DNA of 64,000 nt from Deltaproteobacteria bacterium (GCA_043716635.1 JAYSYE010000622.1:1044-65043), one strand, 5' to 3'. Positions 50,881 through 62,924 are shown, counted from the first letter of the stretch. Numbers and translations are program-made. The notes: a model not told the origin generated them from the letters alone.

Positions 50881-51840
50881 CTACTCGCGCGAGAGCAGGC
50901 GCGTCAGGAGATTCATCGTGCGCGGCGGCAGCGTCTCGCCGCGCCACGCGAGCGCCCGGGCGAGCACGAGCGCCTTGTCGGCGGTGGACAGGCGGGGGCG
51001 GGTCGCGAACAGGGCTGCGCCGGTGGACTCGATCTTGTCGAGGATCCGCATGCCGCCGTGCCACGTCAGCGCGAGCTCGACGGCGAGGTCAGGTCCCACC
51101 AGATCCACGATCGGGCGGGCGCGTGCGAAGAGTGCGCGCGTCCGGGCGACCTCGTACCCGACGAGCGCACCGACGGCGGGGCTCGTGCGCGCGGCCGCGA
51201 TGTCGCCCTCGGTCACCCCGAAGTGCCGGAGGTCCTCGGCGGGCAGGTACACGCGTCCGCGCTGCCAGTCGGCTGCGACGTCCTGCACGAGCCGCGCGAT
51301 CGCGACCGCCGAGGACAGGTCCTCCACGTACGCGTGTATCTCGGCGGAGCGATAGCCCGCGATGTACAGCAGCAGGCGGCCCACCGGCTCCGCGCTCTGG
51401 CGCGTGTAGCTGTGTAGCTCCTCGAACGTCGAGTAGCGGCGACGCTCGAGGTCGGTCCGGAACCCGGACAGCAACTCGGTGAACTCCGTGATCGGCAACG
51501 AGAAGCGATCGACCGTGTCCGCGAGCGCGATGAAGACCGGGTGCTCGGCGTGCCCGCGATACGCGTCCTCGAGCTGCTGCTCCCAGCGGTCGAGCTCGCG
51601 CGCGCGCCGGCCCTCGTACTGCGCCTCGTCCGCGAAGTCGTCGGCCACGCGGGCGAACGCGAACAGCGCGAAGATGTGCTTGCGCAGGTGCGACCGGGCG
51701 AACATCGAGCCGACCGGATAGTTGTGGTGACGGGCGTGGACCAGCGCCTCGCAGTAGCGATAGCAGGCTGCCAGGTCGAGCGACGACGGCAGCGGGACCG
51801 CGAGCGCGGGCGAACGAGCCAGTCCAAGGCGTTGGATCAC
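50881..51840 (-). CDS. squalene/phytoene synthase family protein (HpnC-like)
   Basis: 319 aa. Asp-rich motifs ARVADDFADE and VQDVAADWQRGRVYLP. N-terminal HNYPVGS resembles the ENFPV motif of HpnC-type enzymes. Confidence 0.85.
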   Translation of the reverse strand: MIQRLGLARSPALAVPLPSSLDLAACYRYCEALVHARHHNYPVGSMFARSHLRKHIFALFAFARVADDFADEAQYEGRRARELDRWEQQLEDAYRGHAEHPVFIALADTVDRFSLPITEFTELLSGFRTDLERRRYSTFEELHSYTRQSAEPVGRLLLYIAGYRSAEIHAYVEDLSSAVAIARLVQDVAADWQRGRVYLPAEDLRHFGVTEGDIAAARTSPAVGALVGYEVARTRALFARARPIVDLVGPDLAVELALTWHGGMRILDKIESTGAALFATRPRLSTADKALVLARALAWRGETLPPRTMNLLTRLLSRE

Positions 51841-53183
51841 GGGGCCTCCTCCATCAACATGCCATCCGCGGCGGCGAGCCGTGCAAACACGGCGCGCGCT
51901 CGATCTGCTTTGACGTCACCGCTCGCCGCGAGCTCCGCGGCGACGCGGTCGGCGAGCTCGCCCGTGGCCCCGGCGGCGCGAGCGAGCCCGCGCGCATGAA
52001 GCGCCATGTGGCCGCGCTGGATGCCCTCGGTGGCGAGCGCGCGCAGCGCGGCGAGGTTCGTGGCGAGCCCGGCGGCGGCCGCGATCGCAGCGAGCCGATC
52101 GGCGGAGGTGATGCCCGCGATCGCGAGGCCGAGCCGCGCCCCGGGATGCACGTGCAGCGCGCCGCCGACCGTGCCGACCGCGAGGGGCATGTGGAGCCTA
52201 CCGTCGAGGCCGCCGGCGCGCTCGCGCCACACCGCGAGCGGGCGGTAGGCCCCATCGCGACACGCGAACGCGTGGGCGCCTGCCTCGACGGCGCGCCAGT
52301 CCTGGCCGGTCGCGACGAGGACCGCGTCCACGCCATTCATGATGCCCTTGTTGTGGGTGGTCGCGCGGTACGGATCGAGCTCCGCGAAGCGCGATGCGGC
52401 GGCGATCGCGGCCCGCACCTCGGCACCCGGCGCGCCCACGCTCGCGAGCTGCGCGTCGTCGATCGAGCACGTCACCGTGACGGTGCGACCGTCCGAGAGA
52501 TTCGACAGGATGCGCAGCCCGGCCTTGCCACCGGCCGTGCTCGCGATGCGGTTCGCGAGCGCCTCGCACAGCGTGTTGACGAGGTTCGCCCCCATCGCGT
52601 CGCGACAGTCGACATGGAGGTGCGCCACCAGCATGCCGCCGTCGGGGCCGGCCTCGGCGAGCGTGCGGACCTCGAGGCCGATCGGGCCGCCTCGGCGAGC
52701 ACACAGGCGCGGCACGAGCTGGCGGGCCTCCTCGACGATCGCGGGAGCTGCCGCTCGCAGCGCGGCCGCGCCGGCGTGCACGTCGGCGATGCCAGTGACC
52801 TGGATCTGGCCGATCATCACCGGCGCCGAGACCGTGGCGTGGAACCCGCCGGCGTCGCCGTGACGGGTCATGCGCGCGGCGTTCGAGGCGGCGGCGACGA
52901 TCGACGGCTCCTCGACGGCCATCGGGACGAGGAGATCGGTGCCATCGAGCCGGAAGTTGACCGCGACCGCGAACGGCAGGGCGTACGTGCCGATCACGTT
53001 CTCGATCATCCCGTCCGCCACGTCGGTGGGCAGGGCGCCGGGATCAACGGACGCGAAGTCGACGACGGCCGCGGTCTCGGGCGCCCCGGCGAGCGCAGCC
53101 AGCAGCGCGGCGCGGCGATCGGCCACACTGAGCCGGTAGAAGCCGGGTAGCCGGGACGTGCGGGTCGATGACACGGTGACCAT
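51837..53183 (-). CDS. mvaA: hydroxymethylglutaryl-CoA reductase, class II
   Basis: ATG at 53183, inside the over-extended track ORF. ENVIGTYALP, VEEPSIVAA, DAMGANLVN, and THNKGIMNG. Confidence 0.9.
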   Translation of the reverse strand: MVTVSSTRTSRLPGFYRLSVADRRAALLAALAGAPETAAVVDFASVDPGALPTDVADGMIENVIGTYALPFAVAVNFRLDGTDLLVPMAVEEPSIVAAASNAARMTRHGDAGGFHATVSAPVMIGQIQVTGIADVHAGAAALRAAAPAIVEEARQLVPRLCARRGGPIGLEVRTLAEAGPDGGMLVAHLHVDCRDAMGANLVNTLCEALANRIASTAGGKAGLRILSNLSDGRTVTVTCSIDDAQLASVGAPGAEVRAAIAAASRFAELDPYRATTHNKGIMNGVDAVLVATGQDWRAVEAGAHAFACRDGAYRPLAVWRERAGGLDGRLHMPLAVGTVGGALHVHPGARLGLAIAGITSADRLAAIAAAAGLATNLAALRALATEGIQRGHMALHARGLARAAGATGELADRVAAELAASGDVKADRARAVFARLAAADGMLMEEAP

Positions 53184-60984: not shown

Positions 60985-61998
60985 CTACTTCGGGTGCTTC
61001 GCGCGGTACTCGTCACGGTACTTGAGGACCATGTCGAGCTCGGCCTGCGAGTAGACCTTGCCGACGAGCTCCTTCTGCACTTCCGCCGCGTTCTTCGTGA
61101 ACTCGTCGACGAGTGCCGCCGGGGTGGGGACCACGATCACGCCCTTGTGCGTCATCGTGCTCTTCGCATCCTCGTTCGACTTGCGGATCACCTTGCGGAG
61201 CTTCTTCGCGGCTGACTTGGCGATGCCCTCGAGCGTTTTCTGATCTTCGGGCGACAGCTTCTTCATCGCGTCCATCGACACGACCGTCGCGCCGATCGCG
61301 AAGCTCATCGGCATCGACGTCATGAACCTGACCTTCGTGTACCACTGCAGTGCCACGCTCGCGAGCGGCGACCCGTAGCACGCGGTGATCCGGCTCGACG
61401 TGAGCGCGGCATCTACCTCTGGCACGCCGAGCGGGACGCCATTGAGGCCGAGCTTCTTGAACATCGCGCCGACGAGCTGATCGTCGCCCCACTGCCAGAG
61501 CTTCTGGCCCTTCAGGTCGGCCATCGACTCGACCTTGGTCTTCGACAGGAAGTAGATCCAGCCCACCTCGCCGCGGTCGTTGAGCTTGAAGCCCTTCTTC
61601 TCGAACTTCTTCTGGAAGTACGGCCACATCTTGTCTGCGACGTAGTCGACCTCCTCGGCCGTCTTGAAGATCATCGGGACCTCGAGTACGCGGATCGACT
61701 CGTCGATCATCGCGAGCCCGATCGACGTGACGGCCGCGCCGTCGAGCTGCCCGAGCTTGATCTTGCGGACGAAGTCGCGCTCGTCGCCCTGCTGGCCGCC
61801 CTCGAAGTACTTCATCGTGACGCGACCGGCGGTCTTGTCCTTGATCTCGCCCGCCGACTTGTCGAGCTGGCTCATCCACGGACTCCCCGCCGGCGCGAGG
61901 GTCGCGATGCGGATCTCGACGTTGTCGGCATGCGCCAGCGGCGCCGCCAGGGCGAGCGCCACGGCGGCGCCAGCGGTCAGTGCGGATAGACTTTTCAT
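60985..61998 (-). CDS. dctP: TRAP transporter substrate-binding protein (DctP family)
   Basis: 337 aa. Signal peptide and a DctP-like fold pattern (IRIATLAP.GSPW, YF......V). Confidence 0.88.
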   Translation of the reverse strand: MKSLSALTAGAAVALALAAPLAHADNVEIRIATLAPAGSPWMSQLDKSAGEIKDKTAGRVTMKYFEGGQQGDERDFVRKIKLGQLDGAAVTSIGLAMIDESIRVLEVPMIFKTAEEVDYVADKMWPYFQKKFEKKGFKLNDRGEVGWIYFLSKTKVESMADLKGQKLWQWGDDQLVGAMFKKLGLNGVPLGVPEVDAALTSSRITACYGSPLASVALQWYTKVRFMTSMPMSFAIGATVVSMDAMKKLSPEDQKTLEGIAKSAAKKLRKVIRKSNEDAKSTMTHKGVIVVPTPAALVDEFTKNAAEVQKELVGKVYSQAELDMVLKYRDEYRAKHPK

Positions 61999-62924
61999 TG
62001 AAAGAGCTCCCTTTCGTGCTTGAGGTAGCGGCGCGCCTTGCGGTGCGCGACTTCATTGGCCAGACGCTGCTCCGGCCAGATCGCCGGATCCGTCTCCATC
62101 ACCGTCTTCAGCGTGTCGTGGAACAGCTTCTGATCGTTGTTCGCGAGGCCCACGCGGTACGCCATCAGCACGGACGGCAGCAGCATCTTGCCGCCCGTGA
62201 TCTGGCCCGCGAGGAGGAACTCGGCCTTGGCCGCATCGGGTTGGCCGCCGAGCGCCTTGGGCCGGCTCGTGAGCAGCATGCCGAGCGCGATGTGAGGCAG
62301 CGCGGCGTGGATCTTGTTCGCGGGCGCGTGCTTCGCGTCGAGCTCGATCACGCGGTGCATGATCGCATCGACGGTCGCCACGTGGCCGAGCATCTCCATG
62401 CGCGAGCTGTTGTGATTCACCATCGAGCCGAGCGCGACGCCGGCCCACATCATCGCGGTGCGCTTGCTGCCGCTCGTGTCCTTGATGAGCTTCCGCACCT
62501 GATCGTCGGAGCCGAACAGCTCCTTTTGCCAGCGAGGGCCGAGCGTGCGGAGCGCGTAGTTGAGGCAGCGCGTGAACATCTTTGTCGCGCGCGTGTTGTG
62601 GTATTCCGTGGCCTCGAGGTCTTTCGCGAACTTCGCTACCTCCCAGTCGTCCTCGACAAACGCGGTGCCGTACTGGCAGTACGCCTCGGTCAGGAGGTTG
62701 GTGAGGATCTCGTTGTCGGGGTTGACGACCCAGAAGCCCTCGACGGTTTTGAGCGTGCCGGGGATTGCCTGGTGCGCCAGCTCGTAATCCGACTCCATCT
62801 GGAGCGATGGCTGGGCGCGGAGCAGCACCTTCGCGGTGGTGTTGACGGTGATCTTGCCGAGGTCGCAGCCTCCGCAGAGAGCGGCGGCGGCGGCGGCAGT
62901 GGCGAACAGGGAAGCAAGGCGCAT
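61995..62924 (-). CDS. tatT: TatT-family TRAP T-component (TPR-like lipoprotein)
   Basis: ATG at 62924 gives MRLASLFATAAAAAALCGGC (lipobox). The helical-repeat protein (ALP/IPGTLKTVEG, AYCQYGTAFVEDD, N..A..KA..YL) matches my recollection of the TatT family. ATGA overlap with dctP. Confidence 0.72.
   Translation of the reverse strand: MRLASLFATAAAAAALCGGCDLGKITVNTTAKVLLRAQPSLQMESDYELAHQAIPGTLKTVEGFWVVNPDNEILTNLLTEAYCQYGTAFVEDDWEVAKFAKDLEATEYHNTRATKMFTRCLNYALRTLGPRWQKELFGSDDQVRKLIKDTSGSKRTAMMWAGVALGSMVNHNSSRMEMLGHVATVDAIMHRVIELDAKHAPANKIHAALPHIALGMLLTSRPKALGGQPDAAKAEFLLAGQITGGKMLLPSVLMAYRVGLANNDQKLFHDTLKTVMETDPAIWPEQRLANEVAHRKARRYLKHERELFQ

What the first reader, a model, noticed from the sequence alone, without database searches (positions are those of the whole stretch)
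50881..62924. 12-kb co-directional string: a TatT-type TRAP transporter packed directly against a mevalonate pathway, a UbiA prenyltransferase and a squalene/phytoene-synthase-like enzyme
Eleven minus-strand genes have minimal spacing. From the 5' end the junctions are: tatT/dctP ATGA overlap, dctP-dctQ 15 nt, dctQ-dctM 3 nt, dctM-ubiA 10 nt (or a 32-nt overlap), ubiA-fni 1 nt, fni/mvk ATGA, mvk-mvaD 80 nt, mvaD/pmk GTGA, pmk-hmgR 5 nt, and hmgR/synthase ATGA. TatT-associated TRAP systems (TPATs, first described in Treponema pallidum) have no established ligand and have been proposed to handle hydrophobic molecules. Here one is packed against the enzymes that make IPP/DMAPP from HMG-CoA, a membrane prenyltransferase of the decaprenyl-phosphate phosphoribosyltransferase type, and a head-to-head prenyl condensing enzyme. 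This suggests a dedicated uptake or recycling plus biosynthesis unit for an isoprenoid-derived compound, or import of mevalonate/HMG-like acids to feed the pathway. HMG-CoA synthase and thiolase are notably absent from the string, so an imported precursor is conceivable.
Basis: partly seen in the sequence, partly recalled or inferred. Interest (0 to 1): 0.7.

Follow-up and report, generated by a model that had tools for sequence, protein, structure and literature searches.

The report
Lipid-type TRAP transporter joined to isoprenoid genes
A myxobacterial genome packs a lipid-type (TatT-associated) TRAP transporter, a membrane polyprenyl-phosphate enzyme, the mevalonate pathway and a squalene-synthase-like gene into one tight 11-gene string; the packing is real and conserved in relatives, but only the transporter–membrane-enzyme pairing looks like a true unit, and the idea of mevalonate import is unlikely.

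Summary
Eleven minus-strand genes (50881-62924) run tatT-dctP-dctQ-dctM-ubiA-fni-mvk-mvaD-pmk-hmgR-hpnC, with gaps of -4 to +80 nt, exactly as described; only the hmgR/hpnC overlap is GTGA, not ATGA. The organism is a Kofleriaceae/Haliangiales-type myxobacterium.

The order recurs in relatives down to 41% TatT identity: 31 of 48 informative loci are contiguous and 6 more have inserts. Three results weaken a TRAP-mevalonate functional unit:
- Unrelated divergent upstream genes are kept next to tatT just as well (93-97%).
- About 25 distant TatT-TRAP loci with 3 kb or more of downstream DNA have no UbiA or mevalonate gene in their 10-kb flanks.
- The mevalonate block is detached in several genomes.

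The robust unit is TatT-P-Q-M plus a DPPR-synthase-like UbiA (dctM-ubiA gap -13 to +69 nt; adjacent in 48 of 55 loci). It co-occurs with a clade-specific Cys-rich C-terminal tail on DctM.

"No established ligand" is outdated, because TatT proteins bind long-chain fatty acids or sterols. DctP has Trp where canonical TRAP binding proteins have the carboxylate-clamping Arg, so mevalonate/HMG import is unlikely. Absence of mvaS is normal in myxobacteria.

Two conserved promoter-like elements, one of ECF type, precede tatT. I file it as a new variant of a known kind, of moderate interest.

The parts
62984..63012 (-). Sigma-70-type promoter-like element, TTGACT-N17-TAGCGT, inside a roughly 30-nt block conserved upstream of tatT
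   Evidence: It is unique in the window, with 0 matches expected by chance. The block GATTGACTCTCGnCTTTCGCTGACTTAGCGT is nearly identical in most of 37 related loci. Function was not tested.
62943..62967 (-). ECF-sigma-type promoter-like element, TGAAT-N16-CGTC, ending 18 nt before the tatT ATG
   Evidence: TGAAT-N16/17-CGTC is present in 30 of 37 related loci, with free spacer sequence and fixed spacing. It is also present in L086, L088, L170 and L171, where TatT is 45-50% identical. Reading it as an ECF promoter rests on my own knowledge of ECF -35/-10 motifs.
61995..62924 (-). tatT: TRAP T-component, a TPR-like predicted lipoprotein (lipobox Cys20)
   Evidence: PF16811, E = 2.5e-52. Cys20 is invariant in alignment A1. 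The AF2 model has pLDDT 84. Foldseek top hits are Tp0956 (3U64/4DI3, TM 0.72-0.83) and 8G52 (TM 0.64-0.70).
60985..61998 (-). dctP: periplasmic solute-binding subunit with a signal peptide; Trp168 replaces the canonical carboxylate-binding Arg
   Evidence: PF03480 and NF037995. Alignment to 4N8Y and Tp0957. The K-x-W-x-W motif is invariant in 79 of 79 related and 56 of 56 distant TatT-linked DctPs.
60235..60969 (-). dctQ: small membrane subunit, not fused to dctM
   Evidence: PF04290, E = 7e-15. It lies 15 nt after dctP and 3 nt before dctM.
58912..60231 (-). dctM core: large permease (elevator) subunit, residues 1-440
   Evidence: PF06808, E = 7e-76; TIGR00786, 320 bits.
58204..58911 (-). dctM C-terminal tail: 235 aa, hydrophilic, two repeats of about 100 aa with 4 Cys each; no known family; inferred to be periplasmic
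   Evidence: Repeats and Cys positions. No Pfam match. The tail is 99-454 aa in 62 related loci, against 7-34 aa in 35 distant TatT-TRAP loci. The only database relative, P0385, is a lipoprotein-like protein carrying the same module. AF2 failed, with pLDDT 38.
57312..58193 (-). ubiA: polyprenyl-phosphate phosphoribosyltransferase-like UbiA-family membrane enzyme, starting 10 nt after the dctM stop
   Evidence: NF008977, 233.5 bits against a cut-off of 234. M. tuberculosis Rv3806c (8J8J), E = 4e-40. The dctM-ubiA gap is -13 to +69 nt in about 45 loci.
56204..57310 (-). fni: type 2 isopentenyl-diphosphate isomerase
   Evidence: TIGR02151, 347 bits against a cut-off of 281.
55266..56207 (-). mvk: mevalonate kinase
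   Evidence: TIGR00549, 211.8 bits against a cut-off of 163.
54157..55185 (-). mvaD: diphosphomevalonate decarboxylase
   Evidence: TIGR01240, 269.9 bits against a cut-off of 171.
53189..54160 (-). Second GHMP kinase, taken as phosphomevalonate kinase from its position in the pathway
   Evidence: Only a weak GHMP_kinases_N/C match. No NCBIfam hit. PDB hits are Lin0012, mevalonate kinases and PMK at E = 2e-11 to 2e-3. It is conserved at this position in related loci.
51837..53183 (-). hmgR: class II HMG-CoA reductase
   Evidence: TIGR00532, 339 bits against a cut-off of 260; PF00368.
50881..51840 (-). HpnC-like squalene/phytoene-synthase-family enzyme, with a GTGA overlap onto hmgR
   Evidence: TIGR03464, 260.8 bits against a cut-off of 250.45. 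PDB 4HD1 (HpnC), E = 9e-48. It follows hmgR wherever the flank reaches: L023, L080, L031, L043, L085, L172.
63017..64000 (+). Divergent neighbour: N-terminal part of an SBP_bac_5-family protein. In relatives it is the first gene of an SBP5, HAMP/GAF kinase and GGDEF response-regulator operon
   Evidence: tblastn matches the SBP_bac_5 gene immediately upstream of tatT in 77 of 79 loci. Pfam annotation in L001, L003, L085 and L170.

Best explanation
The string is one operon-like, probably co-transcribed, set of three modules in a Kofleriaceae/Haliangiales-type myxobacterium. It is driven from conserved promoters upstream of tatT.

Module 1 is the real functional unit. It is a clade-specific TatT-associated TRAP importer for a hydrophobic or amphipathic lipid. 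The TatT lipoprotein captures the lipid in the periplasm and passes it to DctP, whose pocket carries Trp instead of the carboxylate-clamping Arg. DctP docks on DctQ/DctM, which moves the ligand inward by an ion-gradient-driven elevator step. DctM has gained a disulfide-type periplasmic tail. Its gene is translationally coupled to a DPPR-synthase-like UbiA, which adds phosphoribose from PRPP to a polyprenyl phosphate at the inner face of the membrane.

Module 2 (fni, mvk, mvaD, pmk, hmgR) converts HMG-CoA, made elsewhere by MvaS or by leucine catabolism, into IPP and DMAPP.

Module 3 is an HpnC-type squalene-synthase-family enzyme.

Modules 2 and 3 are co-expressed with module 1 as part of membrane-lipid or envelope homeostasis. 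They are not mechanistically dependent on the transporter.

Shown here: gene identities, junctions, conservation, the Arg-to-Trp change, the tail, and the promoter motifs.

Inferred: co-transcription, a lipid ligand, the periplasmic location of the tail, UbiA chemistry, and ECF control.
For: - Gene identities and junctions.
- No internal promoter or terminator; the 80-nt gap is unstructured.
- Conserved promoter-like motifs occur only upstream of tatT.
- The TatT fold matches the lipid-binding Tp0956 and 8G52 structures. TatT ligands are fatty acids and sterols (PMC11713862).
- Trp168 is invariant in TatT-linked DctPs.
- The dctM-ubiA junction is -13 to +69 nt, and UbiA is adjacent in 48 of 55 loci. 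In 7 of 8 intermediate-clade contexts (TatT 41-50% identical) UbiA is also adjacent, while mevalonate genes follow in only 3 of 8.
- Every insertion falls between ubiA and fni, never between dctM and ubiA.
- The DctM tail is confined to the UbiA-linked clade.
- mvaS lies elsewhere in M. xanthus.
Against: - There are no expression data, so co-transcription is inferred from spacing alone.
- Five related loci keep the transporter with its tail but have no UbiA or mevalonate genes downstream. Three contexts have the transporter followed by mevalonate genes without an adjacent same-strand UbiA (L003, L080 and the P0314 contig). UbiA is therefore not obligatorily adjacent.
- Loci are not phylogenetically independent, so the counts overstate the number of events.
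- The whole region, including unrelated upstream genes, is a stable syntenic block. Tight dctM-ubiA spacing could therefore be operon compaction without biochemical coupling.
- The window TatT is only distantly related to the TatTs with known ligands (E = 1e-7 and 7e-4).
- TRAP elevators have been shown to move only small organic acids.
Confidence: 0.45

Rival explanations
1. The TatT-TRAP system handles an isoprenoid lipid, such as polyprenyl phosphate or a squalene-derived lipid, that is made or re-used by the adjacent enzymes. The whole string is then a dedicated trafficking or recycling plus biosynthesis unit, analogous to BstC sitting beside sterol-synthesis genes.
For: - The full string is kept down to 41% TatT identity (L085, L172), and 37 of 48 loci keep mevalonate genes downstream.
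- dctM and ubiA are tightly coupled.
- UbiA's acceptor would be a polyprenyl phosphate.
- The TatT-superfamily member BstC binds sterols and is encoded next to sterol-synthesis genes.
- DctP lacks the carboxylate Arg.
- Two distant TatT-TRAP loci have SQS_PSY genes within 10 kb, and one of these is an HpnC/D/E-like trio (L096, L123).
Against: - The mevalonate adjacency is no better conserved than unrelated upstream genes at similar distance: GpsA 46 of 54, HDAC 34 of 51.
- About 25 distant TatT-TRAP loci with 3 kb or more downstream have no UbiA or mevalonate gene. Their downstream genes are heterogeneous.
- The mevalonate block is detached, inverted or absent in at least 10 loci.
- The characterised myxobacterial TatT binds fatty acids, not isoprenoids.
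- The mevalonate pathway is housekeeping in myxobacteria.
Confidence: 0.2
2. The arrangement is inherited synteny only. A fatty-acid or hydrophobic-acid TatT-TRAP transporter, a UbiA enzyme and a housekeeping mevalonate operon lie side by side in a slowly rearranging core-genome block. They have no functional or regulatory relation, and internal promoters exist that consensus scans miss.
For: - Divergent upstream genes are as well or better conserved next to tatT: SBP5 77 of 79, kinase 58 of 61, GGDEF regulator 53 of 57.
- Every pairwise adjacency is broken in some genome.
- The sigma-70 scan is weak for 70% GC genomes and other sigma types.
Against: - Stop/start overlaps or gaps of 15 nt or less occur at 9 of 10 junctions.
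- The dctM-ubiA gap stays at 69 nt or less across about 45 loci despite 40-60% protein divergence.
- The conserved promoter motifs are found only before tatT.
- The DctM tail and the UbiA linkage appear in the same clade.
Confidence: 0.22
3. The TRAP system imports mevalonate, mevalonolactone or HMG-like acids to feed a pathway that lacks HMG-CoA synthase and thiolase.
For: - TRAP transporters classically take up organic acids.
- mvaS and thiolase are absent from the string and from the large ORFs of the window.
Against: - DctP lacks the Arg that clamps the substrate carboxylate in 96.8% of DctPs and has an invariant Trp instead.
- The TatT fold is a hydrophobic-pore lipid binder.
- hmgR is present, so the pathway starts from HMG-CoA, not from mevalonate.
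- In M. xanthus, mvaS and the thiolase are encoded elsewhere.
- The transporter occurs without mevalonate genes in many relatives.
Confidence: 0.03

Closest known systems
TPAT (TPR-protein-associated TRAP transporter) TatT/TatP(T)/TatQM of Treponema pallidum (Tp0956-0958)
   Same: - A TatT (PF16811) lipoprotein is encoded first, directly followed by DctP-type and DctQ/M-type genes.
- The predicted TatT fold superposes on Tp0956 (TM 0.72-0.83).
- The P subunit lacks the canonical Arg: Ala in Tp0957, Trp here.
   Different: - TatT is only about 21% identical.
- Q and M are separate genes.
- DctP has a cleavable signal peptide rather than a lipobox.
- DctM carries a 235-aa Cys-rich tail that is absent from distant TPATs.
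- A UbiA gene is translationally coupled to dctM, and mevalonate genes follow.
Enhygromyxa salina TatT (PDB 8G52), a fatty-acid-binding T-component of a myxobacterial TPAT
   Same: It comes from the same phylum and has the same fold (TM 0.64-0.70). It was shown to bind palmitate, so a lipid ligand is the default expectation.
   Different: The sequence relationship is very distant (E = 7e-4 over 140 residues). Its gene neighbourhood was not available to me. No link to UbiA or mevalonate genes is reported in the papers I could read.
BstABC sterol-trafficking system of Methylococcus capsulatus (BstC is a TatT-superfamily protein)
   Same: A TatT-type lipid binder is encoded beside isoprenoid (sterol) biosynthesis genes. 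This is the precedent for using co-localisation to infer an isoprenoid ligand.
   Different: BstC works with an RND pump (BstA) and a PhnD-like binding protein (BstB) and is thought to export. Here the partners are DctP, DctQ and DctM, an importer architecture. The neighbours are precursor-pathway genes, not sterol-tailoring genes.
Decaprenyl-phosphate phosphoribosyltransferase Rv3806c (UbiA) of Mycobacterium tuberculosis
   Same: The match is E = 4e-40 over 240 residues, including the N-D-x-x-D-x-x-x-D and HPxKRxRPIAxG region. The NCBIfam DPPRS models are the top hits.
   Different: The score falls 0.5 bit below NCBI's cut-off. No DprE1/DprE2-type epimerase or phosphatase gene is in the string. 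The context is a TRAP transporter and the mevalonate pathway in a Gram-negative bacterium.
Myxobacterial mevalonate pathway with mvaS encoded separately (M. xanthus AIB operon mxan_4263-4267)
   Same: The lower mevalonate pathway and HMG-CoA reductase are present without mvaS or thiolase in the same operon. HMG-CoA is supplied from elsewhere.
   Different: I could not compare the M. xanthus mevalonate locus itself. The physical join to a TatT-TRAP and UbiA unit was seen only in the Haliangiales-type clade.

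Membership tests
TPAT (TatT-associated TRAP transporter) | A TatT/T-component protein (PF16811) with the TPR-like all-helical fold | tested here: met
   PF16811, 178 bits. The AF2 model (pLDDT 84) matches 3U64/4DI3 at TM 0.72-0.83 and 8G52 at TM 0.64-0.70.
TPAT (TatT-associated TRAP transporter) | tatT is encoded in one co-directional cluster with dctP, dctQ and dctM homologues | tested here: met
   Junctions are -4, 15 and 3 nt. The same order is found in 80 related and about 50 distant loci.
TPAT (TatT-associated TRAP transporter) | TatT is a lipoprotein that physically docks the P subunit and binds a hydrophobic ligand | not testable with these tools
   Only the lipobox Cys20 (invariant) can be read from the sequence. 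Binding and complex formation need experiments.
Canonical DctP-type TRAP solute-binding proteins (organic-acid binders) | A conserved Arg in beta-strand 6 (SiaP Arg147) that clamps the substrate carboxylate | tested here: not met
   Trp168 aligns with that Arg. Trp is invariant in 135 of 135 TatT-linked DctPs, whereas Arg is present in 96.8% of DctPs.
Bacterial mevalonate pathway (HMG-CoA to IPP/DMAPP) | HMG-CoA reductase, mevalonate kinase, diphosphomevalonate decarboxylase and IPP isomerase each pass curated equivalog cut-offs | tested here: met
   TIGR00532 339 bits (cut-off 260); TIGR00549 212 (163); TIGR01240 270 (171); TIGR02151 347 (281).
Bacterial mevalonate pathway (HMG-CoA to IPP/DMAPP) | Phosphomevalonate kinase identified by its own model | tested here: inconclusive
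   Only weak GHMP-kinase domain matches and no NCBIfam hit. PDB hits are a mixture of mevalonate kinases and PMK. The assignment rests on position and pathway logic.
Bacterial mevalonate pathway (HMG-CoA to IPP/DMAPP) | HMG-CoA synthase and acetoacetyl-CoA thiolase are present | tested here: not met
   Neither is in the string or among the 20 largest other ORFs of the window. The rest of the genome could not be searched.
Decaprenyl-phosphate phosphoribosyltransferase (DPPR synthase, Rv3806c type) | Sequence membership above the curated cut-off and similarity to the solved enzyme | tested here: inconclusive
   NF008977 scores 233.5 bits against a cut-off of 234. 8J8J matches at E = 4e-40.
Decaprenyl-phosphate phosphoribosyltransferase (DPPR synthase, Rv3806c type) | Pathway partners (DPPR phosphatase, DprE1/DprE2-type epimerase) lie nearby | tested here: not met
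   None is in the string or in the conserved flanks of related loci.
HpnC (hydroxysqualene synthase of the HpnCDE squalene route) | The equivalog model is passed | tested here: met
   TIGR03464 scores 260.8 bits against a cut-off of 250.45. 4HD1 matches at E = 9e-48.
HpnC (hydroxysqualene synthase of the HpnCDE squalene route) | Adjacent hpnD and hpnE genes | tested here: not met
   There is no SQS_PSY paralogue anywhere in the window. A convergent PilZ gene follows hpnC.
BstABC-type sterol transport | A TatT-like protein partnered with an RND (MMPL) pump and a PhnD-like binding protein | tested here: not met
   The partners here are DctP, DctQ and DctM.

The most novel reading that the evidence does not exclude
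A Haliangiales-specific TRAP transporter has been repurposed for an isoprenoid lipid. The TatT lipoprotein, an Arg-less DctP and a DctM with a new disulfide-rich periplasmic tail would retrieve polyprenyl phosphate, or a related isoprenoid lipid, from the periplasmic face. They would hand it directly to the translationally coupled phosphoribosyltransferase UbiA. The whole unit would be expressed with the mevalonate pathway from an ECF-sigma promoter as an envelope-lipid recycling and biosynthesis unit.
Probability: 0.15. Interest if true: 0.8.

Novelty: new variant of a known kind. Interest (0 to 1): 0.5.

Why it matters
What TatT-associated TRAP systems transport is only starting to be answered, with fatty acids for two members and sterols for a relative. 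How a TRAP elevator could move a lipid at all is not known.

This clade offers a new handle on both questions. The transporter has an extra periplasmic Cys-rich domain on DctM. It has an invariant Trp in place of the substrate-clamping Arg. It has a dedicated membrane partner enzyme that acts on polyprenyl phosphate, it is usually followed by the mevalonate pathway, and conserved (possibly ECF-type) promoters precede it.

If the transporter and UbiA really work together, it would be the first TRAP system tied to isoprenoid-lipid carrier metabolism. It would also be the first role described for DPPR-synthase-like enzymes in myxobacteria.

If they do not, the locus still shows that conserved adjacency within one family needs a background-synteny control before function is inferred.

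Tried and rejected
No fold could be assigned and no fold search was run.
2. A homologue search with the tail alone returned a single protein, because the tail diverges too fast for the word index.
3. I tested a conserved RNA hairpin around the TGAAT motif and rejected it. RNAalifold found no consensus. Single-sequence folding was no better than flank shuffles: mean z = -0.5, and 25 of 30 hairpins observed against 24.4 expected. A promoter reading fits the fixed N16/17 spacing better.
4. I rejected horizontal acquisition of the TRAP part as the explanation for the 66% versus 75% GC step, because GC3 is uniform at 0.90-0.95.
5. A tblastn search of TatT against plasmids found nothing.
6. Rfam and tRNA scans of the window found nothing.
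7. A very diverse TatT alignment (A3) was too degenerate for the metagenome scan. A narrower one (A4) worked.
8. The papers by Zhai et al. 2023 and Brautigam et al. 2012 are not held in the library. Their content is cited only through PMC11713862 and PMC5812351.
9. I could not find DctM C-terminus topology in the SiaQM structure papers by text search.

Full report
**1. What is in the sequence**

The window is 68-75% GC chromosomal DNA. Between 50881 and 62924 the minus strand carries eleven genes. Each has a family-level match (Pfam; NCBIfam):
- tatT (PF16811)
- dctP
- dctQ
- dctM, 675 aa
- a UbiA-family enzyme whose best models are decaprenyl-phosphate phosphoribosyltransferases
- type 2 IPP isomerase (fni)
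- mevalonate kinase
- diphosphomevalonate decarboxylase
- a second GHMP kinase, taken as phosphomevalonate kinase
- class II HMG-CoA reductase
- an HpnC-type squalene/phytoene-synthase-family enzyme

The start codons and junctions I recomputed are -4, 15, 3, 10, 1, -4, 80, -4, 5 and -4 nt. The one difference is that the last overlap is GTGA rather than ATGA.

The string is bounded by a divergent gene at 63017 onward and a convergent PilZ gene at 50282-50842. No promoter-like site and no plausible terminator lie between the genes. The 80-nt mvk-mvaD gap is unstructured (z = 0.25). GC3 is 0.90-0.95 in all eleven genes. The lower GC of the transporter part therefore reflects protein composition, not foreign origin.

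The rest of the window holds ordinary housekeeping genes: Fe-S cluster assembly, Hsp70, RNase Y, Ser/Thr kinases and RarA. It holds no mvaS, thiolase, hpnD or hpnE.

**2. Organism and close relatives**

TatT homologues at 54-77% identity come from Kofleriaceae, Haliangiales and 'Myxococcales' metagenome-assembled genomes.

I fetched 80 species-level loci around tatT and mapped the window's proteins onto them. There were 48 loci with enough downstream DNA to judge:

| Arrangement | Loci |
|---|---|
| TatT-P-Q-M-UbiA-mevalonate genes, contiguous | 31 |
| 1-5 kb insertion between ubiA and the mevalonate genes | 6 |
| Transporter plus UbiA, no mevalonate gene within 2.5 kb or more | 4 |
| Mevalonate genes, no adjacent same-strand UbiA | 2 |
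| Transporter only | 5 |

In the transporter-only loci, unrelated housekeeping genes follow. In L031 the mvaD-pmk-hmgR-hpnC half has moved upstream and inverted. The HpnC-like gene follows hmgR wherever the flank reaches: L023, L080, L031, L043, L085 and L172.

**3. Which link is tight**

The dctM stop and the ubiA start are separated by -13 to +69 nt in about 45 loci. UbiA is adjacent to dctM in 48 of 55 loci where this can be judged. All insertions fall between ubiA and fni, where the gap ranges from 0 to 2165 nt. None falls between dctM and ubiA.

In a more distant layer (TatT 41-50% identical to the window), UbiA follows DctM in 7 of 8 contexts. Mevalonate genes follow in only 3 of 8:
- L085 and L172 have the full string, including SQS_PSY.
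- The P0314 contig has transporter then mevalonate genes, without UbiA.
- L087, L088, L170 and L171 have transporter plus UbiA, then unrelated genes.
- L086 has dctQ and dctM displaced about 6 kb from tatT-dctP; a partial UbiA hit follows dctM there.

UbiA therefore travels with the transporter, and the mevalonate block is a frequent but separable neighbour.

**4. Control for background synteny**

The divergent genes upstream of tatT are kept at least as well as the mevalonate genes:

| Upstream gene | Loci keeping it next to tatT |
|---|---|
| SBP_bac_5 | 77 of 79 |
| HAMP/GAF histidine kinase | 58 of 61 |
| GGDEF response regulator | 53 of 57 |
| GpsA | 46 of 54 |
| Histone-deacetylase-like | 34 of 51 |
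| Ser/Thr kinase | 22 of 44 |

The window's gene at 63017 onward is that SBP_bac_5 homologue. Synteny thus decays with distance at similar rates on both sides of tatT. The 77% retention of mevalonate genes about 5.7 kb downstream is what this stable block shows for unrelated genes too. Conserved adjacency alone therefore does not argue for a transporter-mevalonate functional unit.

**5. Distant TatT-TRAP systems**

TatT is a large family, with 1202 clusters at 50% identity and E of 1e-3 or below.

A metagenome scan seeded with distant TatTs gave 80 loci. Their TatTs are 25-35% identical to the window's, and their GC ranges from 36% to 72%. They keep TatT-DctP-(Q)M. No locus has a UbiA, fni, mvk, mvaD, pmk or hmgR homologue in its 10-kb flanks, and about 25 of them have 3 kb or more of downstream DNA.

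Their downstream genes are heterogeneous: peptidases, TPR proteins, TetR, an oxidoreductase and an acyl-ACP thioesterase. Two loci have SQS_PSY genes 7 kb away, separated by unrelated genes. L096 has an HpnC/D/E-like trio and L123 has a single gene. This is at most a weak hint. The UbiA and mevalonate association is therefore specific to one myxobacterial clade.

**6. Features of the transporter itself**

(a) TatT
- It is a predicted lipoprotein with an invariant Cys20.
- Its model (pLDDT 84) superposes on Tp0956 and on the palmitate-bound E. salina TatT.
- Sequence similarity to both is remote.

(b) DctP
- It has Trp168 where canonical DctPs have the Arg that clamps the substrate carboxylate.
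- The motif K-x-W-x-W replaces K-x-R-V.
- It is invariant in 79 of 79 related and 56 of 56 distant TatT-linked DctPs.
- The Arg is present in 96.8% of 6,142 DctPs (PMC5812351).

(c) DctM
- It has a 235-aa hydrophilic C-terminal tail made of two repeats of about 100 aa, with four Cys each. The tail has no Pfam family.
- Such tails (99-454 aa, median 8 Cys) occur in all 62 related DctMs examined. In 35 distant TatT-TRAP DctMs only 7-34 residues follow the core.
- The only database relative of the tail is a lipoprotein-like protein carrying the same two-repeat module after an OB-fold domain.
- With the paired Cys counts, this suggests a periplasmic, disulfide-bonded domain. That is an inference, and structure prediction failed.

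**7. The enzymes**
- UbiA matches M. tuberculosis Rv3806c at E = 4e-40, including the Asp-rich and HPxKRxRPIAxG region. It misses NCBI's DPPR-synthase cut-off by 0.5 bit. No DprE1/E2-type partners are nearby.
- The HpnC-like enzyme passes the HpnC equivalog model and matches PDB 4HD1, but it has no hpnD or hpnE beside it.
- HMG-CoA reductase is present, so the pathway starts from HMG-CoA.
- In M. xanthus the HMG-CoA synthase gene lies in the separate AIB operon and the thiolase elsewhere. HMG-CoA is shared with leucine and isovaleryl-CoA metabolism (PMC5389471). The absence of mvaS from the string is therefore expected and does not imply import.

**8. Regulation**

Upstream of tatT lie two conserved promoter-like elements.
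- TTGACT-N17-TAGCGT (62984-63012) sits in a roughly 30-nt block that is almost invariant among relatives. It is unique in the window.
- TGAAT-N16-CGTC (62943-62967) recurs as TGAAT-N16/17-CGTC in 30 of 37 relatives and in four loci of the 45-50% layer. The spacer sequence is free, the spacing is fixed, and the position relative to the ATG is nearly fixed.

From my own knowledge of ECF-sigma promoters ('AAC'-type -35, 'CGT'-type -10), the second element looks like an ECF promoter. That would fit an envelope or lipid function.

I tested a hairpin explanation and rejected it. No such motif precedes ubiA, fni or mvaD; the single other window match lies inside hmgR and is within chance expectation.

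**9. Literature**

The TPAT class was defined in T. pallidum, with a hydrophobic TatT pore and P-subunit cleft (review PMC5812351). Since then Tp0956 and the E. salina TatT have been shown to bind long-chain fatty acids. BstC, a TatT-superfamily protein encoded beside sterol-synthesis genes in M. capsulatus, binds sterols (PMC11713862; PMC10942540).

I found no paper linking a TatT-TRAP system to UbiA or mevalonate genes. The key 2023 paper on TatT neighbourhoods was not available.

**10. Conclusion**

The best-supported reading (confidence about 0.45) is an operon-like string of three modules.
- The genuine unit is a clade-specific, lipid-type TatT-TRAP importer with a novel DctM tail, translationally coupled to a polyprenyl-phosphate phosphoribosyltransferase-like UbiA.
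- The HMG-CoA-to-IPP pathway and an HpnC-type enzyme are co-expressed but separable neighbours.

The rival readings are:

| Reading | Confidence |
|---|---|
| Dedicated isoprenoid-lipid trafficking unit | about 0.2 |
| Synteny without function | about 0.22 |
| Mevalonate or HMG import | about 0.03 |

Nothing here was tested biochemically. Co-transcription, the ligand, the location of the tail and the UbiA reaction are all inferences.

I rate it a new variant of a known kind, with interest 0.5.

Noticed in passing
window 62943-63012 (minus strand): Two conserved promoter-like elements lie upstream of tatT. One is TTGACT-N17-TAGCGT inside a nearly invariant 30-nt block. The other is TGAAT-N16-CGTC, with fixed spacing but free spacer sequence, in 30 of 37 relatives and in more distant loci. 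The second looks like an ECF-sigma promoter.
   Followed up: partly
window 58204-58911 (minus strand); related loci L001-L089: DctM carries a clade-specific C-terminal tail of 99-454 aa, built from repeats of about 100 aa with 4 Cys each and matching no known family. The same module occurs in a stand-alone lipoprotein-like protein (P0385) after a tRNA_anti-like OB domain. Structure prediction failed.
   Followed up: partly
window DctP residue 168 (about 61495-61497); all TatT-linked DctPs in L001-L169: All 135 TatT-associated DctP homologues examined have Trp (motif K-x-W-x-W) at the position of the otherwise near-universal carboxylate-binding Arg. This looks like a signature of the whole TPAT P-subunit subfamily. 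The exception is T. pallidum Tp0957, which has Ala.
   Followed up: yes
window 63017-64000 (+ strand); L001 605-9871 and equivalents: An operon of an SBP_bac_5 protein, a dCache/HAMP/GAF histidine kinase and a response-regulator diguanylate cyclase is transcribed divergently from tatT. It is kept next to tatT in 93-97% of relatives, followed by GpsA and a histone-deacetylase-like gene. It may share a regulatory region with the tatT promoters. A PilZ (c-di-GMP receptor) gene lies just beyond hpnC in the window and in L043.
   Followed up: partly
window 63020-63100: A G+C-rich short tandem repeat (GGGCCGGGGTCGG-like units) sits at the 5' end of the divergent SBP_bac_5 gene and would encode a low-complexity N-terminal stretch.
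   Followed up: no
L096 55-2785; L123 19855-20331: Two distant TatT-TRAP loci (GC 46% and 41%) have squalene/phytoene-synthase-family genes about 7 kb from tatT, separated by unrelated genes. L096 has an HpnC/HpnD/HpnE-like trio and L123 a single gene. About 0.3 such loci would be expected by chance, so this is only a weak hint.
   Followed up: partly
L086 10001-19695; L089 8958-10900; L067; L035: Some relatives have broken transporter clusters. In L086, tatT-dctP is separated from dctQ-dctM by 6 kb of other genes. L089 has a dctP-tatT pair with no Q/M nearby. In L067 and L035, tatT lacks detectable Q/M (and, in L035, P) downstream.
   Followed up: no
window 60700-60969 (minus strand): DctQ has an N-terminal extension of about 90 aa that is Pro/Ala/Asp-rich, matches no family, and is absent or shorter in several relatives (DctQ 186-222 aa).
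   Followed up: no
window 29361-35408 (+ strand): This stretch holds an Fe-S cluster assembly neighbourhood: an IscS-type class V aminotransferase, an HscA-type Hsp70 and small adjacent ORFs. It is ordinary housekeeping context.
   Followed up: no
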